Assembly (NCBI GenBank): GCA_964602245.1
Contig: CAZRPY010000001.1
Span: forward strand, 88,246 to 152,245
DNA: 64,000 bases
Source of the DNA: an uncultured Methanosarcinales archaeon
GTDB taxonomy: Archaea; Nanobdellota; Nanobdellia; Woesearchaeales; JACPIF01
Direction of reading: 5' to 3'
This document shows, piece after piece, positions 13,601-37,014 of this stretch. Below the pieces are notes generated by a model. It had not been told where the DNA came from. It ran no database searches and worked only from the letters and a program-made list of their open reading frames with translations. Each line of letters begins with the position of its first letter. Positions within the stretch are counted from its first letter, which is position 1. The translations under genes and the position numbers were made by a program.

Positions 13601-15007
13601 TTGCTTGAAGGTGGTGCAATGAAGAGAGTAATATTAGTTAATCCCAATACAACTGAAGTATACGAATCTTCTAAAGTCAAGTACTCTGTACCACAGTATG
13701 CTCCTTTAAATCTACTTATAATAGCTGGAGCATTGAAACAGGAAGGGCATAAGGTTAAGCTAGTGGATCTTGACCTAATTGAAAAGAATATATTTGAGAC
13801 TTTAGAAAAAGAAGTCAGTGAGTTTCAGCCTGAGATTGTGGGTATTACCTTTACCTCTGCGTTATATAGCCAATGCATGAAAACAATTGAGATAATAAGA
13901 AAAAATGTTCCTAATGCACTAATAGTTGCGGGAGGTGCACATGCCTCTTCTGAGCCTAGGTCAGTATTGAAAAGGGATATAGATATTGCAATAATGGGGG
14001 AAGGGGATTATGCTATTAACGATATAATTAAATTTGACTTAAAAGACATCAGAGGAATTGCATATAAAAATGAGAAAAAAGATATTATAATAAATCTTCC
14101 GAGACCATTTGAAAAAGATTTGGATAAGACTCCTATGCCTGATTATGACTTGGTTGATATTTATACCTATAAAGTACCTTATACCCTCAGAAGAAGATTG
14201 CCGGTTGCACCTTTAGAAACTTCTCGAGGATGTCTGTTTGGATGCGTATACTGCACAAAATCAGTTCAAGGAAAAACATTTAGAGTGAAAAGTTCTCAGA
14301 GAGTATTTGAAGAGATTAAGGCATTAAAAGAAAGAGGATATAGAGAATTCCATATAGTTGATGACATGTTTACTACATTCCCTTCTAGGACTAAAGATAT
14401 CTGTAAATTAATGATTGAAAATAAAATAGATATGAAATGGATGTGCTCTAATGGAATTAGAGTGAATTCTGTTGATGAGGAATTACTAAGAATAATGAAA
14501 AAAGCTGGCTGCTACTCTGTATCATTTGGAGTGGAATCTGGAAATGATAAAATATTAAAAAGGATTGATAAAGCTGCTACAACTGATGATGCAAGAAAAG
14601 CAGTCAAGTTATGCAAAAAAGTTGGCATACAGACTATATGCTTCTTTATGTTTGGTTTGCCAGATGAAACTGAAGAGAATTTAAGGGAGACATTAGACTT
14701 TGCCAAAGAGCTTAATCCTGATATTGCTAAATTTGATATAATGATACCATTGCCTTCTACCATTATCTATGAGGAATGGAAAGGAAAGTACATTGAAAGC
14801 TATAACTGGGATGATTATGCTTTTCATAAGAGAAAGCCAGTGTACAATCATCCTAACTTAAGCTGGGAAACTCTTAATAAATACTATCATCAGGCTTATA
14901 GAGAGTTCTATCTTAGACCTTCTTATATATTTAGAAGACTCGTTAAAAGCACACTACAGGGAACTATCTTTAAAGATATAGGGATGCTTATGAGGGTGAG
15001 GTTCTAG
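13601..15007 (+). CDS. cobalamin-binding (class B) radical SAM enzyme
   Basis: N-terminal Rossmann-like B12-binding region, then CLFGCVYC (CxxxCxxC) radical SAM motif. Confidence 0.85.
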   Translation: MLEGGAMKRVILVNPNTTEVYESSKVKYSVPQYAPLNLLIIAGALKQEGHKVKLVDLDLIEKNIFETLEKEVSEFQPEIVGITFTSALYSQCMKTIEIIRKNVPNALIVAGGAHASSEPRSVLKRDIDIAIMGEGDYAINDIIKFDLKDIRGIAYKNEKKDIIINLPRPFEKDLDKTPMPDYDLVDIYTYKVPYTLRRRLPVAPLETSRGCLFGCVYCTKSVQGKTFRVKSSQRVFEEIKALKERGYREFHIVDDMFTTFPSRTKDICKLMIENKIDMKWMCSNGIRVNSVDEELLRIMKKAGCYSVSFGVESGNDKILKRIDKAATTDDARKAVKLCKKVGIQTICFFMFGLPDETEENLRETLDFAKELNPDIAKFDIMIPLPSTIIYEEWKGKYIESYNWDDYAFHKRKPVYNHPNLSWETLNKYYHQAYREFYLRPSYIFRRLVKSTLQGTIFKDIGMLMRVRF

Positions 15008-15024
15008 TTACCTCTAAAAAATAA

Positions 15025-16431
15025 TTAGAGATACTTCAAGCGGTCTTTTTCCTTCCATAAGCCTAGATCTTCATGTGAGCTAGTAAATAGAGAGACATTA
15101 TTGTTCCATAATTTTTCAAGAATATTAATAGTCTTCTTTGCAACATCCTTACCATATATCTTTTTTGCCTTACTCATTTTATGCCTTAAATTTGGCTCAT
15201 TGTAAACTTTTGATATATTATCTGAAACAAAATTGCTACTAAAAGGTGGAATTAATAGATTACTCTTTGCTTCGAAGACTGTTTCTGGCCTGTCTGTATT
15301 AAATCTGGCTGTCAGGCAAGGCTTGCCAAGCTCGTTCATTTCTTCCTGCATACTACCTGAATCTGTATAAATAGCCCAACAATTACTGCTTTCAAGAAAT
15401 TCTATTACTTGTGAATACTCTCTCCATAATTGAGTAAAAAGGAAGTTTTCGTTTGTATTGCTTAAATCTATCAATTTATTTCTTATTTTATAACGCTCTA
15501 ATGCTAACTTAGAAGCGGTTAATTCAACAAAAACAACTTTTATTTTTTTCCTAACCAGATCCAATAAACCATTAATTATTGCTTTAAACCTGCGATCTGT
15601 TAGATTATCCCTTCTATGGATATCAACTCTTAGCCATTCACCTTTCTCAAGCTTAGAATACTCAGCAAAAATACTATTCGCAGATTTCTCCCTTTTTTTA
15701 AGATTTACAGCGTCAACTACAGTGTTTCCTGTTACAAATATTCTTTCTTCTTTATAGCCTTCTTTTACTAAATTTTTTTTATTTAATGCGACTGGGGCAA
15801 AATGGTACTGGCAGCCTGCTGATGCGACAAAAGTATCCCATTGCTCAGGAAATGGCTCGCTTCTGTCAATAAACCATGCCCCATTAAATTGTTGCTCAAC
15901 AAGTTGCTCAAATTTGAGCTTTTCTTTTAATTTCTTAAAAGACTCGGGAGACATTCCACGCAAGCCAGCTTCGCCTTGCAAAGATTTATTATTGGTTGCA
16001 AAGAGCCATGCAGATGGTATAATTGCAGATGAAATAGTATCGCCATTGACATATATCCAGCTCTCTACTTCTGGATATTTCTTCTTTAATTCTGCTGCAA
16101 GCCATCTTGTTTTAACAAACATTTCTGATGATTTCTGGCTTAAATCGCCTCTAATCTGGAAGTCTATTGCAAGATGCTCTTCAAATTTGAATTCTTTAAT
16201 GCCATAACCTAAAAGATTATCAAAATGCTGGCCTGTGTTTAGCACTATAAATGGGATATTTCTTTTATTGCATTCGTACATTAGACTCCATTCCTTATAA
16301 AAGCAAGGTTTAGTGGCTATCACTAGAACAAGAACCTTTTTACTTGCCTTTACTGCATTACTATATGCTTTATTCAGAATCTGTTCATTAATTTTTATTG
16401 GCAGCCAATTAACATTAATTTTTGCTTCCAT
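15025..16431 (-). CDS. UDP-N-acetylglucosamine 2-epimerase (WecB/NeuC family) with N- and C-terminal extensions
   Basis: VNGDTISS, QGEAGLRG, IFVTGNTVVDA, DSGSMQEE and NTDRPE align to WecB motifs. 468 aa versus about 370 typical. Confidence 0.75.
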   Translation of the reverse strand: MEAKINVNWLPIKINEQILNKAYSNAVKASKKVLVLVIATKPCFYKEWSLMYECNKRNIPFIVLNTGQHFDNLLGYGIKEFKFEEHLAIDFQIRGDLSQKSSEMFVKTRWLAAELKKKYPEVESWIYVNGDTISSAIIPSAWLFATNNKSLQGEAGLRGMSPESFKKLKEKLKFEQLVEQQFNGAWFIDRSEPFPEQWDTFVASAGCQYHFAPVALNKKNLVKEGYKEERIFVTGNTVVDAVNLKKREKSANSIFAEYSKLEKGEWLRVDIHRRDNLTDRRFKAIINGLLDLVRKKIKVVFVELTASKLALERYKIRNKLIDLSNTNENFLFTQLWREYSQVIEFLESSNCWAIYTDSGSMQEEMNELGKPCLTARFNTDRPETVFEAKSNLLIPPFSSNFVSDNISKVYNEPNLRHKMSKAKKIYGKDVAKKTINILEKLWNNNVSLFTSSHEDLGLWKEKDRLKYL

Positions 16432-16458
16432 TATAGTCCCTTTGTTCTAATTATTTCT

Positions 16459-16666
16459 AAAACCATTTATCTTAGATAAATGGAATTTTGTTCTGTCAAA
16501 AACCACCCATCAGAAATGGGTGGCATGATTGTATCACTATTACATTCAGGTGGTTTTTGATGCTCAAAATTCTACGTGTTATGGGTAGTTTTTGAACACA
16601 CAAAATTCCATCTGCATTTATTGCTAACATCCAAAACCACTTATCCTAGGTAAGTGGAATTTTGTT
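16459..16666. repeat. cluster of short hairpin repeats with conserved flanks (AAAACCA-stem-loop-TGGAATTTTGTT)
   Basis: Units at 16459-16492, 16498-16523 and 16633-16666. Stems differ but each is self-complementary. Inverted partial copies (ggtggttttt at 16549, caaaattcca at 16601). Confidence 0.55.
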
Positions 16667-16668
16667 GT

Positions 16669-17730
16669 TTAAAACTCTTTTAATACTTCGTCAACTGTCT
16701 TAATAACTGTATCTGGTTTTAAAGTTTCCATACACCATATATTTTCAGTACACTCGCTCTTAAAAAAGCATTTGCATTCCTGTTTTGGCTGTATTAGTTT
16801 ACCTAGGCCATACAGCTCAAACTCATGCTTATTAAATATATTATTGTACACTACTATTTTCTTCTCAAGTGCTATAGCAATATGCATTGCCATAGTAACA
16901 GCTGTAATTACTAACGTGCACTGATCCACAATATTTACAAAATCATGAAATGGATGACAGCCAAAGTAATAGGCATGAGTTTTTTTTGACATTTCTTTAT
17001 TTCTAATATCTTCTAATTCACCGCCTAGAAATACTACATCATAGCCTTTTGCCATTAATTTATTAGCTAGTTCTATCCAATACTTGTCAGGCCACATCCT
17101 AGTCTTCCATCTTGGATTACAGCCTGTATTAAGACCAATTACTATTTTTTTGAATTTTGGAAATTTTAATTTAGTAGGTTGCTTCTGTAGCATGTAACGC
17201 TGCATCTCATATTTGAAACCGCAAAGCTCAAATATTTCTTCATAATAACTTTTTGTATTCTCTCTATTATAATCGTCGTCAACACCAGAGAAGAATTTAT
17301 GTTCCGCATTCTTGTTTATTGGCTCACATCTTCCATTTAATAATTTATAGCCATGTTTTTCATCTGCCTTTACCATGTTGATTATTGCGCATGCTTCTCT
17401 GTCTTTATCTAAATTATATATTATATCAAACTTATCTGCCTGCAAATAGGCTAGATTTCCTGCGTTAAGTTCAAGAGGTACTTCTACTATTCCTTTTATT
17501 ATTTCTGGAAAGTATGTTACCCATGTAATTTCACAATTAGGATAAACTTCCTTCAGTTTTCTAATTAAAGGGGTTGTTCTAATTACATCGCCCATTGCAC
17601 CTAATTTAACAATAAGAATTCTCCTACCTCTTTTAATGTAGTGCTCACACTGACATTTTGAGCCTTCTTTCTTGTGCCAGATACATGGCCTATCGCCTAA
17701 AAAATATAAACAGTCCTTGCTTAGATACAT
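16669..17730 (-). CDS. glycosyltransferase family 9 with Cys-rich N- and C-terminal extensions
   Basis: VKLGAMGDVIRTTPLIRKL GT9 motif; N-terminal C-x8-C-x9-CxC plus His; C-terminal CKC...C...WC. Confidence 0.7.
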   Translation of the reverse strand: MYLSKDCLYFLGDRPCIWHKKEGSKCQCEHYIKRGRRILIVKLGAMGDVIRTTPLIRKLKEVYPNCEITWVTYFPEIIKGIVEVPLELNAGNLAYLQADKFDIIYNLDKDREACAIINMVKADEKHGYKLLNGRCEPINKNAEHKFFSGVDDDYNRENTKSYYEEIFELCGFKYEMQRYMLQKQPTKLKFPKFKKIVIGLNTGCNPRWKTRMWPDKYWIELANKLMAKGYDVVFLGGELEDIRNKEMSKKTHAYYFGCHPFHDFVNIVDQCTLVITAVTMAMHIAIALEKKIVVYNNIFNKHEFELYGLGKLIQPKQECKCFFKSECTENIWCMETLKPDTVIKTVDEVLKEF

Positions 17731-17747
17731 GGTGCCTCTGCTAATTG

Positions 17748-18683
17748 TTAGTAGCCTGCTAATAGGTCTTGAACAGATTTTCTAACTGCCTCATTTGAAC
17801 TTAATTTTGCTTTCCATCCTAATTTGTTTATCTTTGAAACATCGAGTGACATTAAAGGAACATCTCCTTTCCATCCTCTTTTTCCTCCAGTGTACTTAAA
17901 CTTAACACCCTTTAACCCCATTTCTTCTACTACAATATTTGCAATTGCATCAACCTGAGTGCTGGAATTACATCCAAGATTAAAAACATTAATAGCCTCT
18001 TTTGCGTTTTCTAAGCCAAATAGCATTCCATCAACACATTCTCTAACCTCTAAATAAGATTTTTTCTGCTTTCCATCACCAAGTATTTCAAGCTCATTTG
18101 GATTATTTCTTAGTTTTTTAATAAAATCGACTAAAACCCCATGGGTGCCTCTCTTCCCTATAATATTGGCAAACCTAAAAATCCAGATTTGAAAATCAAA
18201 GTTATGGGAAAAGGCTGTCATCAAACCTTCACAGGCTAATTTGCTTGCGCCGTATAGTGATATAGGTTGTAATGGCCCATAGTCTTCTTGAGTTGGCATT
18301 ATTCTTGGTTCTCCATATATAGCAGATGTAGATGAATAGACTATTTTCTTGATGTCATTTAGCCTCATTGCTTCCAATACATTATAAGTTACTAAAGTAC
18401 CTTGCTTAAGGTCTATATCTGTTACATTATTATTGCTAATATCTGAATTAGCTGATAGATGAAAGACTATATCATGACCTTTTATTGAGTTTAAAAGTTT
18501 ATTAAAATCGAGTAAATCTGCTTTAATAAATATAAAATTTTTGTTAGAGAAATGATACTTTACCCTATCTTCAGTGCCAAGGCTAAGATTATCGTAAACT
18601 GTTACCTTATACCCTTTTTCAAGAAGTGCATCTACTAAATTACTTCCAATAAAGCCTGCACCGCCTGTAACAAACGCTTTCAT
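17748..18683 (-). CDS. NAD-dependent epimerase/dehydratase (UDP-hexose 4-epimerase-like)
   Basis: [17 protein letters not shown] Rossmann motif, YxxxK region, 311 aa extended SDR. Confidence 0.85.
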   Translation of the reverse strand: MKAFVTGGAGFIGSNLVDALLEKGYKVTVYDNLSLGTEDRVKYHFSNKNFIFIKADLLDFNKLLNSIKGHDIVFHLSANSDISNNNVTDIDLKQGTLVTYNVLEAMRLNDIKKIVYSSTSAIYGEPRIMPTQEDYGPLQPISLYGASKLACEGLMTAFSHNFDFQIWIFRFANIIGKRGTHGVLVDFIKKLRNNPNELEILGDGKQKKSYLEVRECVDGMLFGLENAKEAINVFNLGCNSSTQVDAIANIVVEEMGLKGVKFKYTGGKRGWKGDVPLMSLDVSKINKLGWKAKLSSNEAVRKSVQDLLAGY

Positions 18684-18921
18684 ATTTCAATTGTGTGGTT
18701 TTATTATAACTTTTATATTATAAATAATATAGGGTTATGACCTACTGGTATTATTATGTCATCAGAGGGGTTTTATACAGCTTATTTAAAATTTGCGTAT
18801 CTTAGGAATAGCTGGAAAAGTTATTAATCAATAATGTTTAGAAAACGACATTAATATATAGCAACTAATCATCGCTGACTTTCTCAATATGAGAAAGTAT
18901 GGACAACATATGTAGTTTTCT

Positions 18922-18972
18922 AACTAGTGAAAGACATTTATATTGCCCTAAATCTTGTGTCTTTCACTAGTT
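18922..18972. promoter_or_regulatory. 15-bp perfect inverted repeat aactagtgaaagaca / tgtctttcactagtt with 21-nt spacer
   Basis: Read directly from the sequence. Lies 42-92 bp upstream of the GMC oxidoreductase start, in a divergent promoter region. A second palindrome, ctttctcaatatgagaaag, sits at about 18880-18899. Confidence 0.5.
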
Positions 18973-19013
18973 TAACGTTACCTTTATAATGGGACAATTA
19001 TTTTACAAAGAAT

Positions 19014-20642
19014 ATGATATATGTTGTAGGATCTGGACCAGCTGGCGTGGCCTGCGCTTATGCCCTTATAAGGAAAGGGCTGAAAGTTACTATGCTAGAT
19101 GCTGGAATAGAATTAGAGCAAGTGAAGAGTAAAATTCTGGAGAAATTGCAAAGGTCAAAGAAGTGGGATCCTAAATTGCTAGAAAAGATAAAAGGTAATA
19201 CAAAAGTGACTGTTAAGGGTGTGTCAAGGAAATTAATATATGGTTCTGATTATCCGTATAAAGAAGCTGATACTAACATAAAGTTAACTGCTGAGGGAAT
19301 TACAGCTAATCCTTCTTTTGCATATGGTGGATTGAGTAATGTGTGGGGGGCAGCAGTAATGCCCTATAGAGCTGAAGATATAAAAGACTGGCCTATAACT
19401 TTAGAGCAAATAGCTCCATACTACACAGCTGTGTTGGAATTCATGCACATTGCAGTTGCAAACATAGGAAATCCTAAGGATTTCCTAGCTGTAAAGGAAT
19501 CTAAGATTCCTTTAAGAGATTATCTGCAAGAATTGTTTCCTATTTACGCTAGGTATTGCCAAGATTTTAATTATAGCAGACAGGCTTTTTTGATGATAAA
19601 AGATTTAGAAGTTAATAAAAAGAAATTGAATGATGCTGGAATATTCTTTGGGAGCTCACGATTGGTTGTGCAATTTGAGGCTGGAGAAAAGAAACCTGGA
19701 TGTGTGTATTGTGGACTATGCCTGCATGGTTGCCCTTATAAGTTAATTTATAGCAGCGCTTTTACTGTTGACAAACTTAGAAAAAATAAGAATTTTAGAT
19801 ATCAGAAGGATGTGATTGTAGAAAAGATAAATGAAAAAGAAGATAATGTTATTATTTTGGCGCATGAAAGAAATAATAAAAAAAGGATAATATTTAAAGG
19901 CTCGAGAGTTTTTTTAGCGTGTGGTGCATTAACAACAACTAGAATAATGCTGGAATCTATGAGAGCTTATAATGAAGAGGTGATCTTAAAAGATTCTCAA
20001 TATTATCTGTTTCATCTGCTAAGATATAAAAGTGCTGGTAATGTTACAAAAGAGCCTTTGCATACTTTAGCTCAGATGTATATTGAAATATTTGATAATG
20101 AAATTGATAATAATTCTGTTCATTTGCAGCTATATACTTACAGCGATTTATATGATAGTGCATTAAAGAGTATTTTTAGAGTTGGTTATAGTCTTCTAAA
20201 AAGACCTTTAGTACAAATTATGAGCAGGCTCATAATAGGACAGGGCTATCTTCATTCAAATAGCTCGTCAACAATTTCTGTCAAATTAGAAAAGGGCTAT
20301 AAGAAACTTTATTTAAGAAACAATGAAAATAAGAGTTCTAATAGAAAAATTAAGGATATTATGTGGAAGTTATTTAAGAATAGGAGGTATATTAAGGCTA
20401 TGCCTTTGATACCCTTACTTAAGATAGGCAAGCCAGGAGAGAGCAATCATCTTGGAGGGAGCTTTCCAATGAGAAAGAATCCTAAAAGATTTCAGACAGA
20501 TGTTTTAGGCAGACCTTTTGGATACAAGAAGGTTCATCTTGTGGACTCAAGCGTATTTCCAAGCATACCTGCACAGACTATAACTCTAACTGTCATGGCA
20601 AATGCTTATAGAATTGCAGACCAGTATGATAAACTAAAATGA
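19014..20642 (+). CDS. FAD-dependent GMC-family oxidoreductase with embedded 4Fe-4S-type cysteine motif
   Basis: N-terminal VVGSGPAGVACA FAD motif; C-terminal VHLVDSSVFPSIP...MANAYRIADQ GMC_oxred_C-like; internal CVYCGLCLHGCP (CxxCxxCxxxCP). Confidence 0.65.
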   Translation: MIYVVGSGPAGVACAYALIRKGLKVTMLDAGIELEQVKSKILEKLQRSKKWDPKLLEKIKGNTKVTVKGVSRKLIYGSDYPYKEADTNIKLTAEGITANPSFAYGGLSNVWGAAVMPYRAEDIKDWPITLEQIAPYYTAVLEFMHIAVANIGNPKDFLAVKESKIPLRDYLQELFPIYARYCQDFNYSRQAFLMIKDLEVNKKKLNDAGIFFGSSRLVVQFEAGEKKPGCVYCGLCLHGCPYKLIYSSAFTVDKLRKNKNFRYQKDVIVEKINEKEDNVIILAHERNNKKRIIFKGSRVFLACGALTTTRIMLESMRAYNEEVILKDSQYYLFHLLRYKSAGNVTKEPLHTLAQMYIEIFDNEIDNNSVHLQLYTYSDLYDSALKSIFRVGYSLLKRPLVQIMSRLIIGQGYLHSNSSSTISVKLEKGYKKLYLRNNENKSSNRKIKDIMWKLFKNRRYIKAMPLIPLLKIGKPGESNHLGGSFPMRKNPKRFQTDVLGRPFGYKKVHLVDSSVFPSIPAQTITLTVMANAYRIADQYDKLK

Positions 20643-21493: not shown

Positions 21494-21550
21494 TTAGCTG
21501 GTTACTTCTTTCACTAACTTTATATAGTCTCTTTTACTTTCTCGTCTATA

Positions 21551-27236: not shown

Positions 27237-27238
27237 GT

Positions 27239-29113: not shown

Positions 29114-29232
29114 AGAAATCCTGATGTAATATAAAGTTTTGGTTTTGGTATAATTTAGTATTTTTGCTGACTATACTCTGTACATTGATACATAAGTTTT
29201 AAATAAGGTTGTAAAATCTGACTAACACTGCT

Positions 29233-30933: not shown

Positions 30934-30936
30934 AAA

Positions 30937-31374
30937 ATGAAAAAGTTTTATATTGCTTATGGTTTATCTGTGGTTATTCTATTTGCTTTAATGTTTTACT
31001 CTTATGAGAATTATCATAAATATTATCCCTCTTTAGCAACATTTCAAGATAATCCTGAGTTTCTTGAGGGTGTTAGAGCTGAGAATTGTGGGATTGCTGA
31101 GCAGGTAAATGAGCAAGGATTAATTATTAGAGGTGGCTCTGAGAGAATAAAAGTAAAAGCTGAGAATGCAAGATATCCAAAATATGGCACAATATGTGTT
31201 GTTGGGACTTATAAAAAAGACGGATTTATTGAAGCTGAATATGTGAGGTATAATGACTATATCTTTGTAAAATATTTCCTTTCTGTTCTATCAATTATTT
31301 ATGTTATTTATATCTTCTTTATGGAATGGAAAATAACTAGAAAGTGTTTTATTGCTAGAGGTAAAAATGCCTGA
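30937..31374 (+). CDS. hypothetical membrane protein
   Basis: 145 aa with N- and C-terminal TM helices. Confidence 0.35.
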   Translation: MKKFYIAYGLSVVILFALMFYSYENYHKYYPSLATFQDNPEFLEGVRAENCGIAEQVNEQGLIIRGGSERIKVKAENARYPKYGTICVVGTYKKDGFIEAEYVRYNDYIFVKYFLSVLSIIYVIYIFFMEWKITRKCFIARGKNA

Positions 31375-31864
31375 CTGGATTACACATATATTAATTGGTT
31401 TAATAATTGCTGAGATTTTCAATATTAAGAGGAAGAGTTTAATTGTTATTGGAGCGATATTGCCGGATATTTTAGTTAAACTTGAGTTATTGAGTGTGTT
31501 TTTTCCAGTTGATAAGTATGCAATTACATGGCTATTTAATCCATTGCATACTCCACTAGGGATGGCACTGTTTTCATTGCTTTTAGTTCCTTTGTTTAAT
31601 TTTGATAAATATAAGACTTATTTTCTGTTATTTATAGGCTGGTGTTCTCATTTATTATCTGATTTGATCAATAAACATATTTTGCTAGGCCAAAATTTAT
31701 TGCTCTTTCCTTTTTCATGGCAGAACTTTGAGCTAGGTTTAGTATGGCCTGATCAATATTATTTAATTCTGGTTCCAGTTGCAGCAATATATGCAATAAT
31801 ACTAATTCATAAGTATTATAAAAACAGTAAAAATACGAGGAAAGGTAAAAGGCTGAAAATATGA
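31352..31864 (+). CDS. membrane-bound metal-dependent hydrolase-like protein (YdjM/DUF457-like)
   Basis: MPDWITHILIGLII start and His-containing TM helices. Confidence 0.45.
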   Translation: MLEVKMPDWITHILIGLIIAEIFNIKRKSLIVIGAILPDILVKLELLSVFFPVDKYAITWLFNPLHTPLGMALFSLLLVPLFNFDKYKTYFLLFIGWCSHLLSDLINKHILLGQNLLLFPFSWQNFELGLVWPDQYYLILVPVAAIYAIILIHKYYKNSKNTRKGKRLKI

Positions 31865-32745
31865 ACATTATAGTTACAATACCTGCCTATAACGAAGAGT
31901 TTACAATTGGTAAGGTTATACAGGATATAAAGAAAATAATGTCTGCAAATAGATATAGCTACAAAATATTAGTTGTGGATGATGGCAGCACAGATAAAAC
32001 TGTAGAGATTGCTAGAAAAGCTGGAGCAATAGTTTACTCTCATCCTAAGAACTATGGACTTGCAGAGACTTTTAAGACAGAGGTTGAGCAATGCTTGAAA
32101 CTTAATGCTGACATTATAGTGCATACTGACGCAGATGGGCAATATCTGGCAGAGGATATACCTAAGCTGATAAAAGATGTGGAGAAGGGTAATGATTTAG
32201 TTTTAGGCTCAAGATTTCTAGGAAAGATAGAAGAGATGCCTTGGCTTAAAAGATTTGGGAATAGATTTTTTAGCAGGATTATTTCAGGTGTTGCTAGGCT
32301 AAAGATTAATGATGCACAGACAGGGTTTAGAGCTTTTACCAGGAAAGTTGCTGAGAAATTGCCAATTACTTCAAATTTTACTTATACACAAGAGCAGATA
32401 ATCAGGGCTGTGAGGGCTAAGTTTAGGATTAAGGAAGTTCCTGTTTACTTTGCAAAAAGGAGGAATGGCCAGAGTAGATTAGTAAAAAGTCCATTTGATT
32501 ATGCTTTAAGATCAACAATAAGCATTCTGAGGATTTACAGGGATTATGAGCCTTTGAAATTTTTCTGGAGTGTTGGCGGAACATTTTTTTTGCTTGGCTT
32601 AGGAGTTGGTAGCTGGTTGCTTTATCTTTTTGTTAGATATGGAAGTATTGGGCATGTTCCATTAACTATTTTAAGTGCTTTGTTAATGCTGATTGGTGTG
32701 CAGATAATGCTGTTTGGATTCCTTGCTGATATTTTAAGGAGATAA
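31861..32745 (+). CDS. GT2 polyprenyl-phosphate sugar synthase with C-terminal TM helices
   Basis: VTIPAYNEE...VVDDGSTDKT...TDADGQY; C-terminal hydrophobic segment. Confidence 0.85.
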   Translation: MNIIVTIPAYNEEFTIGKVIQDIKKIMSANRYSYKILVVDDGSTDKTVEIARKAGAIVYSHPKNYGLAETFKTEVEQCLKLNADIIVHTDADGQYLAEDIPKLIKDVEKGNDLVLGSRFLGKIEEMPWLKRFGNRFFSRIISGVARLKINDAQTGFRAFTRKVAEKLPITSNFTYTQEQIIRAVRAKFRIKEVPVYFAKRRNGQSRLVKSPFDYALRSTISILRIYRDYEPLKFFWSVGGTFFLLGLGVGSWLLYLFVRYGSIGHVPLTILSALLMLIGVQIMLFGFLADILRR

Positions 32746-32755
32746 ATATTTCAAA

Positions 32756-33709
32756 ATGAAAAAGGTAGTTGAGGTTCTTGTAAAAATCATAGTCGGGGTT
32801 GCACTTATCTCTTATTTATTTTATAAGATAGGGGTTCAGCAAATAATAGAGATATTGCCAAAAATGAATATTTTTTATTTTTCTTTGTTTCTGGTTTCTT
32901 TCTTTGCCTCACTTGCATTAGGGATATTTAATATAAAAATATTATTAGATGGCTTAGGATATGATTTGACTTTTAAGAGAGTTGCAAAATATTATACTGC
33001 AAGCTGGGCAATTGGTTTATATGCTCCAGGAAAGCTTGGAGAGTTTTCTTTGGTTTACTTATTGAAAAGAGAGAAGATTGGGATGGGACAGAGCATGGCT
33101 ATAGCTGTGCTTGATAAGATGATAACTTTTATTGTGTTTAGCTTGTTTTCTGTGATAGGATTTATAGTTTTTCTGACATTGACTGAATCGTTATGGCTGT
33201 TGATGGTTATTTTAAGTTTGTTAATTATTGCACTATTTTTTATGTTATCTGAGTTTGGAAGAAACTTAGTTAGGAAATATCTGCTAAGGAGATTTTCAGG
33301 AAAATTTAGTGGATTTTATGTAACTGTTAAGATGTTTATTAAGGAGAAAAAAATATTATTAGTTTATAATTTATTATTAACTGTGGTAAAACTTTTACTT
33401 ATGGCGTTATCAATTTTCTTATTATTTTTGTCATTTGATACGTTAGTGCCATTTATTTATACTATGCTTATAATAGCAATAGGAACGATTATTTCTTTAG
33501 TACCAATAACATTTTCTGGATTTGGTGTTAGAGAGGCTGCTTCTGTTTACCTGTTTTCAAAGCTTGGAATTAGTGCTGCTGTAACATTGACTGTTTTTCT
33601 GATAGCCTTAATAACAAATTTCATAATATCTGCAATTGTTTTGTTCATTGTGATAAAGAAGATGAGGTTGTATGAGGAGTTAAAGGAGGCGAGGGAGATT
33701 TTTAGGTGA
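32756..33709 (+). CDS. flippase-like integral membrane protein (lysylphosphatidylglycerol synthase TM-region family)
   Basis: 317 aa, 8 TM helices. Pairing with a DPM-like GT2 is typical of PF03706-type proteins. Confidence 0.55.
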   Translation: MKKVVEVLVKIIVGVALISYLFYKIGVQQIIEILPKMNIFYFSLFLVSFFASLALGIFNIKILLDGLGYDLTFKRVAKYYTASWAIGLYAPGKLGEFSLVYLLKREKIGMGQSMAIAVLDKMITFIVFSLFSVIGFIVFLTLTESLWLLMVILSLLIIALFFMLSEFGRNLVRKYLLRRFSGKFSGFYVTVKMFIKEKKILLVYNLLLTVVKLLLMALSIFLLFLSFDTLVPFIYTMLIIAIGTIISLVPITFSGFGVREAASVYLFSKLGISAAVTLTVFLIALITNFIISAIVLFIVIKKMRLYEELKEAREIFR

Positions 33710-33711
33710 TA

Positions 33712-35415
33712 TCACTTAGTCACCAAATAATTACCTATTGCAAGATAGTCCATTCCTGAGCCGAAGAAGTCTTTTATTGCCTCTTCTGGCTTGTTGACAA
33801 TTGGTTCTCCTGCTAAGTTGTAGGAGGTATTTAATAAAACTGGAGTTCCTGTTAACTTGCCAAATTTCTTTATTAAATCATAGTATAAAGGATTATGTTT
33901 TCTTTCTAATGTCTGAGGTCTAGTTGTTCCATCAACATGAATACCTGCTGTTACCTCTTTCCTTCTATCTTCAGGAACATCGTCAATCATTATCATGAAA
34001 GGTGATTTAAAACCATGTGCCAAGTATTTGTCTTTATCTTCATGCAACATTGAGAGTGCAAATGGGCGCCATAATTCACGGTTCTTTACATAGTAATTGA
34101 CTTTGAATATCATATCTTTATCTGAAGGATCAACTAAAATGCTGCGGGAGCCTAAGGCTCTTGGACCAACTTCCATCCTGCCCTGGAACCAACCAATTAT
34201 CTTGTTTTTAGCAAGCAGCTCTGATGTAACTCCTGCTATATCTTTGTAGAATTTGTATTTGGTTTTGCATTTATCGAGAATTTTCTTTATCTCTTCATTA
34301 CTGTACTCAGTGCCTAAGAAGACATGCTCTATTGGCTCTGGACGTTTTCCAGTTAATTGGTTATAGACAACCATTGCTGCACCCATTGCTGCTCCTGAGT
34401 CTGTTGCAGCTGGTTGAATGTAAATATTATCAACATAATCTTGCTGACCAATCAAGCCATTCATCTTTGCATTTAAAGCTACACCACCTGCAAGGCAAAT
34501 GTTTTTGCAACCAGTTCTTTCATACAGCATTTTTGACATATGCAAGCCAATGTCTTCAGTTTTTTTCTGCAAAGATGCTGCGATATGCTCATAATGATTG
34601 TTAATTGCTGGCTCATTAGTCCTTGGCTTTCCTAGAAGCTTAATTGTATCCTGAGTAAACCATCTTGCTTTTGCCCTGCCCCATTCTTCAATATGACCCC
34701 AGATATATTTTGGATTAGTCTTAAAACCATTTTTTGTTGGCCAGATTATTTTGTCAAATTCTTTTCTGAATTTATCCTTGCCATATGGAGCTAAGCCCAT
34801 TACTTTGCCTTCACCATCATTTGGGCTGAAGTTAAGGAAATCTGTTATTGCAGTATAAGTAACACCAACTGAATGTGGAAGTGGAACTTCACCAAATTTT
34901 TCTATCTCAGAATTATTGCCAATGCCATATAAGCTAGATACAAGCTCACCTCTACCATCTAATGTCAGGATGTTAGCTTTCTTGAAGTCAGAGCCGTAAA
35001 AGGCTGAGGCTGCATGTGTAAGATGGTGATTAATAAAATGTACTTTTGCATTAGCTTCCTTTCCTAGCTTTAAAACTTCTCTGTCATTCATCTTAAATAA
35101 GTATAAAGCTCCAAAGAATTTCCAGGGCTTCCAGATAAGTTTGTTGAAATATGGCTGGAATTTCCAGGGCTTTCTAATAAAGAGATTTTGGTTAATATAG
35201 TAAGCAATATGGTCAACATATTGAAGCTTAATACCTGTTTGCTTTAAACAGAATTCAATTGCCTTGTAAGGAAATGAATGTGGGGAATGCTTAATTCTAG
35301 TAAATCTTTCCTCCTCAGCCAAGGCTAGAACTTTACCATCTTTCATTATGCAAGCTGAGGTGTCATGATAAAAAGCGTTAATGCCTAGGATGTACATTGA
35401 ATCACCTAAAGCCAA
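33712..35415 (-). CDS. carbamoyltransferase (NodU/CmcH family), second paralog
   Basis: MYILGINAFYHDTSACIMKDGKVLALAEEERFTRIK; 567 aa. Confidence 0.85.
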   Translation of the reverse strand: MALGDSMYILGINAFYHDTSACIMKDGKVLALAEEERFTRIKHSPHSFPYKAIEFCLKQTGIKLQYVDHIAYYINQNLFIRKPWKFQPYFNKLIWKPWKFFGALYLFKMNDREVLKLGKEANAKVHFINHHLTHAASAFYGSDFKKANILTLDGRGELVSSLYGIGNNSEIEKFGEVPLPHSVGVTYTAITDFLNFSPNDGEGKVMGLAPYGKDKFRKEFDKIIWPTKNGFKTNPKYIWGHIEEWGRAKARWFTQDTIKLLGKPRTNEPAINNHYEHIAASLQKKTEDIGLHMSKMLYERTGCKNICLAGGVALNAKMNGLIGQQDYVDNIYIQPAATDSGAAMGAAMVVYNQLTGKRPEPIEHVFLGTEYSNEEIKKILDKCKTKYKFYKDIAGVTSELLAKNKIIGWFQGRMEVGPRALGSRSILVDPSDKDMIFKVNYYVKNRELWRPFALSMLHEDKDKYLAHGFKSPFMIMIDDVPEDRRKEVTAGIHVDGTTRPQTLERKHNPLYYDLIKKFGKLTGTPVLLNTSYNLAGEPIVNKPEEAIKDFFGSGMDYLAIGNYLVTK

Positions 35416-35580
35416 AATTAATGGCTTGTTTATTAAAATCTTATTGATTTATGGCTTATATCTAAGGAATAATAGCGTGATAGAGCCTATTAAGAGGTTA
35501 TTTAAAGGTTATGAACATTACAGTAGAAAGGTTTATAAAGCAAATTAAGTCTTTTAATCACTATAGTTAATTGGCTTAAA

Positions 35581-37014
35581 ATGAAGGTCTTGCTTGTTAA
35601 TCCAATAATAAGGGCATCTGAATTTCCACCTAGCAGGTTTCCATTAGGCTTAGCCTATATTGCTTCTGCATTACTTGATAAAGGGCATGAGATTGAAGTT
35701 CTAGACCTTAATATGAATAGATTACCAGAAGAAGAGATTAAAAGAAGAATTAAGGCAAGTAGATTTGATGCTGTTGGCTTAACTGGAATGATAACTGAGT
35801 ATCAGCAGATTAAGTATCTTTCTGCTTTAATTAAAGAAATAAGGCCTGATGCTAAGATTATTCTTGGAGGAAGTGGTGGAACTTCAGTGCCTGAATTAGT
35901 GCTTAGGAAAACTAAAGTAGACATTATTGTTATTAGTGAAGGTATAGACACAACAGTTGAGCTTGCTGATTTTCTTGAGAGAGGTAAAGATATTAAAGAT
36001 ATAAGAGGGATTTATTATAAGGATGAAGAAGGAAAGATACATATAACATTGCCAAGAGCGCCAATTAAAGAGGTTGATAAGATATTATTTCCAGCAAGAG
36101 AAGAGTTTGATTTTGAGAAATACATACAACCTTCTAATTTAAGGATATTTAACAGTAAGATAAGAACTACTAATGTAATTGGAAGCTATGGATGTCCTTA
36201 CAGATGTACTTACTGTTATCACCAATTGTTTGGATATGATTTTAGAGGAAGAAGCCCTGCTAATTTAGTTGAGGAGCTAAGAATGCTTTATGATGACTAT
36301 AAAGTTAATGGGATTATTTTTAATGATGATGAGTTTGTCATGGATAAAGGCAGGGTGCATGAGATTTGTGATGAGATTAAGAAAGAGAAGCTGGATGTTT
36401 TATGGGGGCAGAATGGAAGAGTGAATTTAATGGATGATGAATTGCTAGCTAATATGTATTCAGCTGGATGCAGGTTTTCTTGTTATGGTATTGAATCTGG
36501 TAGCCAGTTAATTTTGAATGAGATTAAGAAGGGTGTTAGAGTTGAGCAGGCTAAAGAGGCTGTATTGAAGACATGGGAATCTGGGATGCTGCCTCATGGT
36601 TATTTGATAATTGGCTCGTTTTCTGAAACTCCTGAAACAGTTATGGATACTATTAAGTTTTGTCATGAGACTTCACTGATTGGACAATTTTCATTTATGA
36701 CTCCTTTGCCTAATACACATCTATATCAGCAAGCAAGGCAGATGGGAAGATTAAAGCAGAGTGATGAATGGCTGCTTGAGAGATGGGGAGAGTGGAATGA
36801 GAAGTTAATAACTAATCTTTCTTTAATACCTGATAAAGAGCTTATTAGATTGAAAAGATGGGCTGAGAGAAAAATATTATTTGGAAATTTAACAGGAAAT
36901 GTCTGGCAGCACATGAAAATAATAAAGATGAGAAATATTATGAAAGAAGGTCTTACACTTGCAAAGAGATGGTACTTCAGAGAATATGAGCCTGCTGCGA
37001 GTGTGCCTGCTTAG
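35581..37014 (+). CDS. cobalamin-binding (class B) radical SAM enzyme
   Basis: B12-binding-like N-terminal domain; CPYRCTYC motif; 477 aa. Confidence 0.85.
   Translation: MKVLLVNPIIRASEFPPSRFPLGLAYIASALLDKGHEIEVLDLNMNRLPEEEIKRRIKASRFDAVGLTGMITEYQQIKYLSALIKEIRPDAKIILGGSGGTSVPELVLRKTKVDIIVISEGIDTTVELADFLERGKDIKDIRGIYYKDEEGKIHITLPRAPIKEVDKILFPAREEFDFEKYIQPSNLRIFNSKIRTTNVIGSYGCPYRCTYCYHQLFGYDFRGRSPANLVEELRMLYDDYKVNGIIFNDDEFVMDKGRVHEICDEIKKEKLDVLWGQNGRVNLMDDELLANMYSAGCRFSCYGIESGSQLILNEIKKGVRVEQAKEAVLKTWESGMLPHGYLIIGSFSETPETVMDTIKFCHETSLIGQFSFMTPLPNTHLYQQARQMGRLKQSDEWLLERWGEWNEKLITNLSLIPDKELIRLKRWAERKILFGNLTGNVWQHMKIIKMRNIMKEGLTLAKRWYFREYEPAASVPA

What the first reader, a model, noticed from the sequence alone, without database searches (positions are those of the whole stretch)
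13601..37014. Three cobalamin-binding radical SAM enzymes embedded among glycosyltransferases
The ORFs at 13601, 22189 and 35581 each combine an N-terminal B12-binding Rossmann-like domain with a CxxxCxxC motif (CLFGCVYC, CPYRCNFC, CPYRCTYC). Class B rSAM enzymes typically methylate unactivated carbon or phosphorus centres. Three of them in a glycan cluster, alongside three conventional SAM methyltransferases, suggests unusual C-methylated or otherwise radical-modified sugars.
Basis: partly seen in the sequence, partly recalled or inferred. Interest (0 to 1): 0.6.

Follow-up and report, generated by a model that had tools for sequence, protein, structure and literature searches.

The report
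Three B12-radical-SAM enzymes in glycan island
A small archaeon's cell-surface sugar gene cluster holds three uncharacterised B12-type radical enzymes whose relatives sit in sugar-building clusters across many archaea and bacteria, pointing to an unstudied radical modification of surface sugars.

Summary
ORFs 13619-15007, 22189-23757 and 35581-37014 each pass Pfam thresholds for a B12-binding domain plus a radical SAM domain. Each has one CxxxCxxC motif that is invariant in its family. Two were modelled, with pLDDT 92 and 90. They are old paralogs, 29-32% identical, in a roughly 50-kb glycan island of a DPANN-like archaeon.

None reaches the cut-off of any curated family. HpnJ, BchE, PhpK, AprD4 and MgmA all score two- to nine-fold too low. 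The best structural matches are AprD4, TsrM, MgmA, OxsB, CysS and TokK, at 15-23% identity.

The main new evidence is comparative. Relatives of all three, from distant archaea and bacteria, lie in glycan clusters. A recurring set is a polyprenyl-phosphate-sugar GT2, a PMT_2 GT-C transferase, a class-I methyltransferase and further B12-rSAM paralogs. Two gene fusions exist: class-I methyltransferase::rSAM and rSAM::GT9.

I conclude these are radical enzymes that tailor glycan sugar precursors (about 0.75-0.8). C-methylation is the likeliest chemistry (about 0.4) but is unproven. Ring contraction and AprD4-like dehydration remain open. Cobalamin binding and cobalamin supply could not be tested.

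The parts
13619..15007 (+). rSAM1: B12-binding plus radical SAM enzyme, 462 aa (mechanical ORF starts at TTG 13601)
   Evidence: Pfam hits to both domains. CLFGCVYC at residues 205-212. AF2 pLDDT 91.9. Foldseek matches AprD4, TsrM, MgmA and OxsB. Start codon.
22189..23757 (+). rSAM2: B12-binding plus radical SAM enzyme, 522 aa, with a longer C-terminal tail
   Evidence: Pfam. CPYRCNFC at 215-222 and GGIHPTM. The family includes a class-I MTase::rSAM fusion, P0168.
35581..37014 (+). rSAM3: B12-binding plus radical SAM enzyme, 477 aa
   Evidence: Pfam. CPYRCTYC at 205-212 and GGSGGTS. AF2 pLDDT 90.2. Foldseek matches TsrM, AprD4 and MgmA. The family includes an rSAM::GT9 fusion, P0276.
8988..9692 (+). 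Small GT2, predicted polyprenyl-phosphate sugar synthase (rSAM1 module)
   Evidence: Pfam GT2. Best PDB hits are Dol-P-Man synthase 5mlz, ArnC and GtrB. A GT2 lies within 3 kb of 14 of 20 rSAM1 orthologs.
9781..10920 (+). GT2 with C-terminal membrane segment, ArnC/DPMS-like (rSAM1 module)
   Evidence: Pfam GT2. PDB hits are ArnC over residues 10-294 and DPMS.
10960..12525 (+). Polytopic membrane protein, weak PMT_2 (GT-C) match; predicted transferase using the lipid-linked sugar
   Evidence: Pfam PMT_2 at 24.2 bits, just below the 26.1 cut-off. Clear PMT_2 genes lie beside orthologs.
12532..13440 (-). Class-I SAM methyltransferase, divergent from rSAM1
   Evidence: Pfam Methyltransf_23/11. A class-I MTase lies within 3 kb of 7 of 20 orthologs, against 2 of 40 distant class-B loci.
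19014..20642 (+). GMC-like flavoprotein with a CxxCxxCxxxCP motif; first gene of the rSAM2 operon
   Evidence: Weak Pfam GMC_oxred_N and GMC_oxred_C hits. Weak PDB hit to FAD-glucose dehydrogenase 6a2u_B. The motif is visible in the sequence.
20639..21493 (+). SDR epimerase/reductase whose start overlaps the stop of the flavoprotein gene
   Evidence: Pfam Epimerase and RmlD_sub_bind. Coordinates.
21551..22150 (+). Ferredoxin (Fer4_15) plus PterinBD-DUF4346 fusion, 38 bases upstream of rSAM2; candidate electron donor
   Evidence: Pfam and NCBIfam. The two-domain form is rare, about 20-25 full-length representatives among 1.84 billion.
23820..24527 (-). Class-I SAM methyltransferase, convergent with rSAM2
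   Evidence: Pfam. Class-I MTases lie directly upstream of rSAM2 orthologs or overlap them in L010 and L174, and one is fused in P0168.
24586..25698 (-). GT4 glycosyltransferase
   Evidence: Pfam Glycos_transf_1 and Glyco_transf_4.
25785..27236 (+). Wzx-type flippase
   Evidence: Pfam Polysacc_synt.
27239..29113 (-). 624-aa polytopic membrane protein with no Pfam hit; recurs beside rSAM orthologs
   Evidence: No family found. Homologs occur in L012, L002/L003 and L032 next to rSAM genes.
37525..38577 (-). GT9 glycosyltransferase convergent with rSAM3
   Evidence: Pfam GT9. The close ortholog locus L012 has the same arrangement. It is 28% identical over 345 aa to the GT9 half of fusion P0276 and is the best match among the window's five GT9 genes.
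38603..41576 (-). SDR dehydratase/epimerase, NTP-transferase and UDP-glucose/GDP-mannose dehydrogenase: sugar-nucleotide supply
   Evidence: Pfam. The same trio follows the rSAM3 ortholog in L012.
5549..9000 (+). Three tandem GT9 genes (5549-6793, 6774-7892, 7846-9000)
   Evidence: Pfam GT9.
15025..18683 (-). WecB-like 2-epimerase, a Cys-rich GT9 and an SDR epimerase
   Evidence: Pfam and NCBIfam.
29233..35415 (.). Two carbamoyltransferases (29233-30933 +, 33712-35415 -), a GT2 with TM tail (31861-32745), LPG_synthase_TM (32756-33709) and small membrane ORFs
   Evidence: Pfam. The GT2 plus LPG_synthase_TM pair recurs in L012.

Best explanation
The three genes encode paralogous class-B (cobalamin-type) radical SAM enzymes. 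They work in the cytoplasm on sugar precursors of a cell-surface glycan.

Proposed mechanism, which is inferred and not shown: the [4Fe-4S] cluster held by CxxxCxxC reductively cleaves SAM to a 5'-deoxyadenosyl radical. That radical removes a hydrogen from an unactivated sugar carbon. The sugar radical then takes a methyl group from methylcobalamin held in the N-terminal Rossmann domain. The product is a C-methylated sugar.

Each paralog serves a different branch:
- rSAM1 acts on a polyprenyl-phosphate-linked monosaccharide made by the adjacent DPMS/ArnC-like GT2. The sugar is then O-methylated or otherwise methylated by the adjacent class-I methyltransferase, flipped, and transferred by the adjacent GT-C-type protein.
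- rSAM2 sits in an operon with a flavoprotein sugar dehydrogenase-like protein, an SDR and a ferredoxin fusion. The ferredoxin fusion could supply electrons.
- rSAM3 works with the neighbouring GT9 and the sugar-nucleotide genes.

My probabilities: sugar or glycan-precursor substrate about 0.75-0.8; cobalamin really used about 0.75; the outcome being C-methylation about 0.4 overall.
For: Domain architecture is above Pfam cut-offs in all three. The cluster cysteines are invariant. The models of rSAM1 and rSAM3 are confident, with a five-strand Rossmann domain followed by a partial barrel. They match solved Cbl-dependent rSAM enzymes TsrM, MgmA/QCMT, OxsB, CysS and TokK at probability 1.0.

The family profile aligns into the Cbl-binding domain of those enzymes and of the TM0182 N-domain. 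It aligns only to the rSAM half of the B12-independent AprD4. The GGxH motif is kept in rSAM1 and rSAM2.

Glycan context is conserved across phyla. rSAM1 orthologs were seen in an unnamed metagenome contig, Methanoperedens and an unclassified bacterium. Twenty GTDB loci at 36-44% identity have 133 neighbouring ORFs dominated by GT2 (21), class-I MTase (12), PMT_2 (11) and further B12-rSAMs (8). These are enriched over more distant class-B loci, with p = 0.011, 0.004 and 0.003.

rSAM2 orthologs lie in Aenigmarchaeota, Actinobacteria and other clusters with GT2, PMT_2, Wzx, Wzy and MTases. rSAM3 relatives lie in GT9, O-antigen ABC-transporter and nonulosonic-acid clusters.

Two fusions exist: class-I MTase::rSAM (P0168) and rSAM::GT9 (P0276). 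The adjacent GT2s match Dol-P-Man synthase, ArnC and GtrB.

Most characterised class-B enzymes are methylases, including the sugar C-methylases GenK and GenD1 (review PMC12931638).
Against: No curated family cut-off is reached, so nothing transfers a function. The two best HMM matches, HpnJ and BchE, are non-methylating enzymes. The top Foldseek hit for rSAM1 is AprD4, a B12-independent diol dehydratase.

The residue under the cobalt, which separates radical methylases from others in solved structures, could not be mapped unambiguously. OxsB N186 and TsrM R69 align to a Thr, while TokK W76 aligns to an Ala/Pro two positions later.

rSAM3 has GGSGGTS instead of GGxH. GT9 adjacency is absent in 0 of 8 more distant rSAM3-like loci. 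Dedicated class-I methyltransferases beside the rSAMs could mean that methylation is done by them and the rSAMs do something else.

No cobalamin uptake or salvage gene is present in the 64-kb window. No glycan structure or enzyme assay exists for any member.
Confidence: 0.4

Rival explanations
1. Cobalamin-dependent but non-methylating sugar rearrangement. The enzyme removes a hydrogen from a lipid-linked hexose and contracts or recloses the ring to a carbocyclic (cyclitol-type) unit. This is what is proposed for HpnJ on bacteriohopanetetrol-glucosamine and for calditol synthase on GDGT-glucose. Alternatively it does OxsB-like chemistry.
For: HpnJ is the best or second-best NCBIfam hit for all three proteins. 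HpnJ works after a GT2 (HpnI) on a lipid-linked sugar, which parallels the GT2 plus rSAM adjacency here. Separate class-I methyltransferases are already present for methylation.
Against: HpnJ scores of 209, 141 and 176 bits are far below the 577.6 cut-off. BchE scores about the same, so there is no specific affinity. No deacetylase partner like HpnK was seen. The HpnJ and Cds mechanisms are themselves unproven.
Confidence: 0.2
2. B12-independent AprD4-like radical 1,2-diol dehydratase. The Rossmann domain no longer binds cobalamin. The enzyme dehydrates a sugar diol to a keto-deoxy sugar, which a neighbouring SDR then reduces to give deoxy sugars.
For: AprD4 is the top sequence hit in the PDB for all three. 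It is the top Foldseek hit for rSAM1, with TM 0.77, and ranks high for rSAM3. AprD4 acts on a sugar. SDR genes are adjacent at 17748, 20639 and 38603. It would explain how a DPANN cell manages without a visible B12 supply.
Against: Sequence similarity to AprD4 is confined to the rSAM half. The N-terminal domain aligns instead with genuine Cbl-binding domains and passes the Pfam B12-binding cut-off. The NCBIfam AprD4 model scores 107, 77 and 73 bits against a cut-off of 500. TM-score differences among the top hits are small.
Confidence: 0.12
3. The substrate is not a sugar. The enzymes modify the isoprenoid lipid carrier or membrane lipids (like HpnP/HpnR or GDGT-modifying rSAMs), or residues of a surface protein or peptide (like MgmA or RiPP methylases). 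They merely share an envelope gene island with the glycan genes.
For: Many class-B enzymes act on lipids or peptides. NCBIfam hits include ladderane-lipid, HpnR, MgmA, ApyD and RiPP C-methylase models. MgmA is among the best structural matches.
Against: All those scores are well below cut-offs. The families occur in both archaea and bacteria, which have different lipids. Neighbours are sugar-nucleotide enzymes and glycosyltransferases, and no lipid-synthesis genes ranked among the commonest neighbour families. Precursor-peptide genes were not searched for. The rSAM::GT9 fusion and the translational coupling to glycan-cluster genes argue for a glycan pathway.
Confidence: 0.13
4. They are anaerobic Mg-protoporphyrin IX monomethyl ester cyclases (BchE), as automatic JGI names on homologs say.
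For: JGI auto-annotation of many homologs. BchE is a top NCBIfam hit.
Against: BchE scores of 204, 146 and 183 bits fall below the 481 cut-off. There are no tetrapyrrole or photosynthesis genes in the window or in any locus whose genes were listed. The host is a DPANN-like archaeon.
Confidence: 0.01

Closest known systems
HpnJ (hopanoid-associated radical SAM, TIGR03471) and calditol synthase Cds
   Same: HpnJ has the same B12-domain plus rSAM architecture. It acts downstream of a GT2 (HpnI) on a sugar attached to a lipid. It is the best or second-best curated HMM for all three proteins.
   Different: Scores are 2.8- to 4-fold below the family cut-off. There is no hopanoid or GDGT-calditol context. 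The host is a DPANN-like archaeon. The ring-contraction chemistry is itself only proposed.
AprD4 (radical SAM 1,2-diol dehydratase of apramycin biosynthesis, PDB 6FD2)
   Same: It is the best PDB sequence hit for all three and a top fold match, with TM 0.71-0.77. Its substrate is a sugar ring. It works with a partner reductase.
   Different: AprD4 does not bind cobalamin. Its N-terminal domain shows no sequence match to these proteins, which instead match true Cbl domains. The NCBIfam score is 73-107 bits against a cut-off of 500. It belongs to secondary metabolism, not the cell envelope.
GenK and GenD1/GntE (class-B rSAM C-methyltransferases acting on gentamicin sugars) and Fom3
   Same: They are class-B rSAMs that methylate unactivated sp3 carbons, and GenK and GenD1 do so on sugar rings (review PMC12931638).
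   Different: No model or sequence of these was available here, so relatedness is untested. They act on free aminoglycoside intermediates in actinomycete antibiotic pathways, not on envelope glycan precursors.
MgmA/QCMT (MCR glutamine C-methyltransferase, PDB 9CCB), TsrM, OxsB, TokK and CysS: solved class-1 Cbl-dependent rSAM enzymes
   Same: They have the same two-domain fold. Profile alignments reach into the Cbl-binding Rossmann domain. MgmA has a similar minimal size of about 450 aa.
   Different: Identity is only 15-23%. Their substrates are peptides, tryptophan, nucleotides or carbapenem and PKS intermediates. TIGR04014 scores 96-137 bits against a cut-off of 360.
ArnC/ArnD/ArnT, GtrA/B/C and DprE1/E2-type pathways (tailoring of a polyprenyl-phosphate monosaccharide before GT-C transfer)
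   Same: A DPMS/ArnC/GtrB-like GT2 and a GT-C-type membrane protein flank the tailoring genes. That a sugar can be modified while on the lipid carrier is established knowledge for ArnD and DprE1/E2.
   Different: None of those systems uses a radical SAM or B12 enzyme. The acceptor and the sugar here are unknown.

Membership tests
Class-B (cobalamin-dependent) radical SAM enzymes | Radical SAM core with a CxxxCxxC [4Fe-4S] motif | tested here: met
   PF04055 scores 102.5, 83.3 and 55.5 bits against a cut-off of 29.5. Each protein has a single CxxxCxxC, invariant in the rSAM1 and rSAM3 family alignments.
Class-B (cobalamin-dependent) radical SAM enzymes | N-terminal Rossmann-type cobalamin-binding domain | tested here: met
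   PF02310 scores 68.5, 48.5 and 76.1 bits against a cut-off of 32.1. The two models (rSAM1, rSAM3) show five beta-alpha units before the barrel. The profile aligns to the Cbl domains of OxsB, TsrM, TokK, CysS, MgmA and TM0182. The GG motif is kept in all three.
Class-B (cobalamin-dependent) radical SAM enzymes | Actual binding and use of cobalamin | not testable with these tools
   AprD4 shows that the fold alone is not proof. No coordinates or cofactor docking were available. No B12 uptake or salvage gene lies in the window.
Class-B radical methylases (TokK/Mmp10/GenK type) | Hydrophobic residue beneath the cobalt (Trp/Leu), as against polar in non-radical-methylating members | tested here: inconclusive
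   The criterion comes from PMC12931638. The alignments place OxsB N186 and TsrM R69 opposite Thr of G-I-T-F-T, and TokK W76 opposite Ala/Pro two residues later.
HpnJ (TIGR03471) | Score at or above the curated equivalog cut-off of 577.6 bits | tested here: not met
   Scores are 209.3, 141.1 and 176.0 bits.
HpnJ (TIGR03471) | Hopanoid gene context (shc, hpnH, hpnI, hpnK) | tested here: not met
   None is present in the window. The host is archaeal.
BchE (TIGR02026) | Score at or above 481.35 bits and a bacteriochlorophyll gene context | tested here: not met
   Scores are 204.2, 146.2 and 183.5 bits. No tetrapyrrole genes occur in the window or in related loci.
AprD4 family diol dehydratase (NF033070) | Score at or above 500 bits over the full length | tested here: not met
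   Scores are 106.9, 76.7 and 72.9 bits, matching the rSAM half only.
PhpK/Fom3-like P- or C-methyltransferases (TIGR04479, NF038361) | Score at or above the curated cut-off (600 and 575 bits) | tested here: not met
   Scores are 162.9, 125.8 and 118.3 bits for TIGR04479, and 115.9, 126.8 and 120.9 bits for NF038361.
GenK/GenD1 sugar C-methyltransferases | Phylogenetic grouping with GenK or GenD1 | not tested
   No GenK or GenD1 sequence or model exists in the libraries reachable here. They are known only from the review.
MgmA/QCMT (TIGR04014) | Score at or above 360 bits and presence of MCR | tested here: not met
   Scores are 137.0, 98.2 and 95.6 bits. No mcr genes lie in the window.

The most novel reading that the evidence does not exclude
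A widespread, undescribed four-part module builds a radical-modified sugar on a lipid carrier and transfers it to the cell surface. The sugar would be C-methylated or carbocyclic. The parts are a polyprenyl-phosphate-sugar GT2, one or more B12-type radical SAM enzymes, a class-I methyltransferase and a PMT_2/GT-C transferase. The module occurs in DPANN archaea, CPR bacteria, Methanoperedens, Planctomycetota, Elusimicrobia and others. If so, the envelope of ultra-small symbionts that cannot make cobalamin would depend on cobamides obtained from hosts or neighbours. The rare ferredoxin-DUF4346 protein might then be a dedicated reductant for the rSAM or corrinoid.
Probability: 0.3. Interest if true: 0.75.

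Novelty: new variant of a known kind. Interest (0 to 1): 0.55.

Why it matters
Class-B radical SAM enzymes are known mainly from antibiotic, cofactor, lipid and peptide pathways. Their sugar chemistry has been studied only in aminoglycoside biosynthesis.

Here three large, uncharacterised subfamilies, with hundreds to thousands of homologs, are tied by conserved synteny and two gene fusions to primary cell-envelope glycan assembly in many uncultured lineages.

If confirmed, this would add a new type of glycan modification. It would give function to a sizeable block of proteins often auto-named 'BchE-like' or 'YgiQ'. It would also make cobamide dependence of DPANN and CPR envelopes a testable idea.

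The module also occurs in Methanoperedens, for which I understand enrichment cultures exist, so glycan chemistry may be reachable there.

Tried and rejected
- The bacterial-type promoter and terminator scan of the rSAM2 operon gave counts equal to shuffles, so it was uninformative for an archaeon.
- tRNA and Rfam scans found only a lone 5S rRNA and no cobalamin riboswitch.
- Five literature searches for B12-rSAM in DPANN, CPR or polysaccharide clusters, or for DUF4346, found nothing on point.
- Mapping the lower-axial cobalt residue from profile-PDB alignments was ambiguous.
- I expected GT9 to be a general partner of the rSAM3 family. It is adjacent only in the close ortholog L012 and fused in P0276. 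It is absent in 0 of 8 more distant metagenome loci, which instead sit in sugar-nucleotide and nonulosonic-acid clusters.
- The methyltransferase domain fused in P0168 is only marginally similar to the window's methyltransferases. The fusion therefore supports a functional link of the enzyme classes, not orthology.
- ORF 37072-37524, between rSAM3 and GT9, has no detectable relatives in Pfam, NCBIfam, the PDB or the fetched loci.
- The BchE auto-annotation was rejected.
- Single-sequence phmmer undercounts GT-C proteins. The Pfam scan of neighbours corrected this.

Full report
**1. Observation**

The window has about 33% GC.

Each passes Pfam gathering thresholds for both domains:

| Domain | rSAM1 | rSAM2 | rSAM3 | Cut-off |
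|---|---|---|---|---|
| B12-binding (PF02310), bits | 68.5 | 48.5 | 76.1 | 32.1 |
| Radical_SAM (PF04055), bits | 102.5 | 83.3 | 55.5 | 29.5 |

Each has exactly one CxxxCxxC motif: CLFGCVYC, CPYRCNFC and CPYRCTYC. The three cysteines are invariant in alignments of the rSAM1 and rSAM3 families.

The first gene most likely starts at ATG 13619, behind a GGTGGTG element, rather than at TTG 13601. The identical database protein is 462 aa.

The three proteins are 29-32% identical to one another over about 410 residues. They are therefore ancient paralogs, not recent duplicates.

**2. Host and neighbourhood**

The window encodes RadA, a RadB-like ATPase, NFACT, an archaeal-type S2 and a stand-alone 5S rRNA.

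Proteins in the same 90% cluster as rSAM2 are named Candidatus Woesearchaeota. The exact proteins come from one 297,834-bp NCBI contig. One related GTDB record (L014, 90% identity) is titled Methanosarcinales. I therefore treat 'DPANN, Woesearchaeota-like' as likely but not verified.

From about 0.9 kb to 50.7 kb the window is a glycan island. It holds:
- five GT9, four GT2 and one GT4
- GT-C-like polytopic proteins and a Wzx flippase
- two carbamoyltransferases and three class-I methyltransferases
- several SDR epimerases or dehydratases, a WecB-like epimerase and UGDH
- NTP-transferases and GlmS, GlmU-like and PGM genes

No cobalamin transport or salvage gene and no cobalamin riboswitch were found in the 64 kb (and the Pfam calls).

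**3. What the proteins are**

Against NCBIfam, the best models for all three are HpnJ and BchE. PhpK-type, ApyD, the ladderane-lipid rSAM, MgmA, BzaD and AprD4 follow. Every score is two- to nine-fold below the curated cut-off, for example 209 against 578 for HpnJ and 204 against 481 for BchE. They belong to no defined equivalog.

In the PDB, the best sequence hits are AprD4 (rSAM half only) and 9CCB, followed for rSAM1 by OxsB, TsrM, TokK and CysS, with fewer of these for rSAM2 and rSAM3. 9CCB is MgmA/QCMT, a genuine B12-dependent C-methylase.

AF2 models of rSAM1 and rSAM3 are confident, with pLDDT 91.9 and 90.2. Each shows a five-unit Rossmann domain followed by the partial barrel. rSAM2 was not modelled.

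Foldseek returns AprD4, TsrM, MgmA, OxsB, CysS and TokK, all at probability 1.0, TM 0.61-0.77 and 15-23% identity. The order differs between the two models, so the ranking does not discriminate among them.

**4. Is the B12 domain degenerate?**

AprD4 and ArsL are known cases where a Rossmann-like domain no longer binds cobalamin.

The rSAM1 family profile aligns with AprD4 only over the rSAM half (profile positions 164-407). It aligns well into the N-terminal domain of the Cbl-binding enzymes: OxsB from position 32, TsrM from 27, CysS from 62, TokK from 70 and MgmA from 89. It also aligns with the isolated Cbl domain of TM0182.

The GG motif is present in all three proteins. It is followed by His in rSAM1 (GGAHASS) and rSAM2 (GGIHPTM), as in TokK. 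rSAM3 has GGSGGTS. By sequence, the domain is not degenerate.

The residue beneath the cobalt is hydrophobic in radical methylases and polar in TsrM and OxsB. It could not be assigned. OxsB N186 and TsrM R69 align to a Thr, and TokK W76 aligns to Ala/Pro two positions on.

Real cofactor binding cannot be tested with these tools.

**5. Comparative context (the main new evidence)**

*rSAM1 family.* More than 1,200 homologs were found. Orthologs at 43-56% identity were examined in an unnamed metagenome contig, in Methanoperedens and in an unclassified bacterium. All lie beside a small GT2, a PMT_2 GT-C protein, a class-I methyltransferase and one or two further B12-rSAM paralogs.

A scan of GTDB species representatives gave 20 loci at 36-44% identity. 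They come from Pace-, Nano-, Woese- and Altiarchaeota, Planctomycetota, Elusimicrobia and Patescibacteria. Among 133 ORFs within 4 kb, the commonest Pfam families were:
- GT2: 21
- Radical_SAM: 13, of which 8 have a B12 domain
- class-I methyltransferase: 12
- PMT_2: 11
- epimerase: 8
- amine-oxidase-like flavoprotein: 6
- GT1 and Wzx: 5 each

Compared with 40 more distant class-B loci from the same scan, genes within 3 kb were enriched as follows:

| Neighbour within 3 kb | Orthologs | Distant loci | p |
|---|---|---|---|
| GT2 | 14/20 | 14/40 | 0.011 |
| Class-I methyltransferase | 7/20 | 2/40 | 0.004 |
| Extra B12-rSAM | 9/20 | 4/40 | 0.003 |

This is an internal comparison, not a genome-wide background.

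*rSAM2 family.* More than 2,100 homologs were found. Loci from Aenigmarchaeota, an actinobacterium and two other metagenomes again show GT2 plus PMT_2, Wzx, Wzy, GT4, class-I methyltransferases and extra B12-rSAMs. In two loci a methyltransferase gene abuts or overlaps the rSAM start. In P0168 a class-I methyltransferase domain is fused to the N-terminus of the rSAM.

*rSAM3 family.* This family is smaller, with 291 homologs:
- The 58%-identical ortholog has the same convergent GT9 and the same SDR, NTP-transferase and UGDH trio as the window.
- P0276 is an rSAM::GT9 fusion next to Wzm/Wzt. Its GT9 half is most similar to the window's GT9 at 37525-38577.
- An Omnitrophota relative sits in a NeuB/CMP-sugar cluster with two more B12-rSAMs.
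- Eight further loci at 36-44% identity lack GT9. They lie among PseB/CapD-type dehydratases, DegT aminotransferases, GT4s, cytidylyltransferases and NeuB.

So the specific partner varies, but the glycan setting does not.

**6. Anatomy in the window**

*Module 1.* This comprises the GT2 at 8988-9692, the GT2 with a membrane tail at 9781-10920, the GT-C-like protein at 10960-12525, the class-I methyltransferase at 12532-13440 (minus strand) and rSAM1.

Both GT2s match Pyrococcus Dol-P-Man synthase, ArnC and GtrB best in the PDB. Those are enzymes that load a sugar onto a polyprenyl phosphate.

*Module 2.* This is a plus-strand operon with four genes:
- a GMC-like flavoprotein with a CxxCxxCxxxCP motif, weakly similar to Fe-S-containing FAD-glucose dehydrogenase
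- an overlapping SDR
- a ferredoxin plus DUF4346 fusion
- rSAM2

It is followed by a convergent methyltransferase, a GT4, Wzx and a 624-aa membrane protein. That membrane protein recurs beside rSAM orthologs elsewhere.

*Module 3.* This comprises rSAM3, an orphan 150-aa ORF, a convergent GT9 and sugar-nucleotide genes.

**7. Mechanism: shown versus inferred**

Shown:
- the domain architecture and the conserved cluster motif
- fold similarity to solved class-1 Cbl-rSAM enzymes
- conserved synteny with glycan genes, and the two fusions

Inferred:
- The enzymes are soluble and need SAM and a low-potential reductant, so they must act in the cytoplasm. That means on NDP-sugars or on polyprenyl-phosphate-linked sugars before flipping.
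- For rSAM1, the DPMS/ArnC-type GT2 and the GT-C neighbour suggest a lipid-linked monosaccharide. Tailoring at that stage has precedent in ArnD and DprE1/E2 (established knowledge).
- The radical step would be hydrogen abstraction from a sugar carbon, followed by methyl transfer from methylcobalamin. Most characterised class-B enzymes are methylases, including the sugar C-methylases GenK and GenD1.

I put the sugar or glycan-substrate claim at about 0.75-0.8 and C-methylation at about 0.4.

**8. Rivals**

- A Cbl-dependent non-methylating rearrangement, HpnJ/Cds-like ring contraction of a lipid-linked hexose: about 0.2.
- An AprD4-like B12-independent diol dehydratase paired with an SDR: about 0.12.
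- A non-sugar substrate (lipid or peptide): about 0.13.
- BchE, as auto-annotated: about 0.01.

**9. Novelty**

Five text searches found no paper describing B12-rSAM enzymes in DPANN, CPR or polysaccharide clusters, or DUF4346. The library is incomplete, so this is weak negative evidence.

The enzyme superfamily is known. What is new is the setting in primary envelope glycan assembly, the recurring module and the fusions. I therefore rate it a new variant of a known kind, with moderate interest.

**10. Limits**

- No experiment, glycan structure or cofactor test exists.
- GenK, GenD1 and Fom3 were not available for phylogeny.
- The neighbourhood statistics lack a genome-wide control.
- MAG taxonomy labels are uncertain.
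- Only 64 kb of the genome could be checked for B12 acquisition genes.

Noticed in passing
window 21551-22150 (+): A ferredoxin (Fer4_15) fused to PterinBD-DUF4346 lies immediately upstream of rSAM2. DUF4346 otherwise ends archaeal dihydropteroate-synthase-like proteins and a long MtrA form. The two-domain fusion is rare, about 20-25 full-length representatives in 1.84 billion proteins, and most hits are stand-alone DUF4346 of 100-130 aa. It was not seen next to more distant rSAM2 orthologs.
   Followed up: partly
window 19014-20642 (+): A GMC-like flavoprotein carries an internal ferredoxin-type motif, PGCVYCGLCLHGCPY. Its only weak PDB similarity is to the Fe-S-containing FAD-glucose dehydrogenase alpha subunit (6a2u_B, E 1.6e-4). 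Its stop overlaps the start of an SDR. It may be a sugar-oxidising partner in the rSAM2 operon.
   Followed up: partly
window 5549-9000, 16669-17730, 37525-38577: An archaeon carries five GT9 ('heptosyltransferase') paralogs, three of them in tandem. No ADP-heptose pathway genes were seen in the window. The copy at 16669-17730 has Cys-rich N- and C-terminal segments.
   Followed up: partly
window 44724-44840 (+): A stand-alone 5S rRNA gene (79 bits) has no 16S or 23S nearby and there is no tRNA in the whole window.
   Followed up: no
window 29233-30933 (+) and 33712-35415 (-): Two NodU/CmcH-type carbamoyltransferases flank a GT2 plus LPG_synthase_TM pair. This suggests O-carbamoylated sugars. 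The GT2 plus LPG_synthase_TM pair recurs in L012.
   Followed up: no
window 27239-29113 (-): A 624-aa polytopic membrane protein has no Pfam or NCBIfam hit. Its homologs sit beside rSAM orthologs in L012, L002/L003 and L032. A same-sized neighbour in L006 has weak PMT_2 plus DUF8201.
   Followed up: partly
window 15025-16431 (-): A WecB-like UDP-GlcNAc 2-epimerase matches its family only from residue 188. The N-terminal 185 or so residues match nothing.
   Followed up: no
window 41578-42780 (-): A 400-aa ORF with no family hit carries two LAGLIDADG-like motifs (SVGDGHI and FFMDEAGM). It is wedged between UGDH and an NTP-transferase gene and may be a free-standing homing-endonuclease-like protein.
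   Followed up: no
window 52000-58000: A low-GC stretch (27-30% against about 33%) holds a chitin-synthase-like GT2 (53421-54659) and three large ORFs with no family hit (54666-56108, 56110-57609, 58310-59653).
   Followed up: no
window 37072-37524 (+): An orphan 150-aa ORF lies between rSAM3 and GT9. It has no relatives in Pfam, NCBIfam, the PDB or any fetched locus, and it is absent from the orthologous locus L012.
   Followed up: partly
L013 (Omnitrophota), L094-L104: rSAM3-like genes, sometimes with further B12-rSAM genes in the same locus (three in all in L013), sit inside nonulosonic-acid clusters (NeuB, cytidylyltransferase, DegT, PseB-like). This hints at radical modification of sialic-acid-like sugars.
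   Followed up: partly
L015-L034, L008, L009: Amine-oxidase or UDP-galactopyranose-mutase-like flavoproteins recur near rSAM1 and rSAM2 orthologs. They account for 6 of 133 neighbour ORFs, and also appear in L008 and L009.
   Followed up: no
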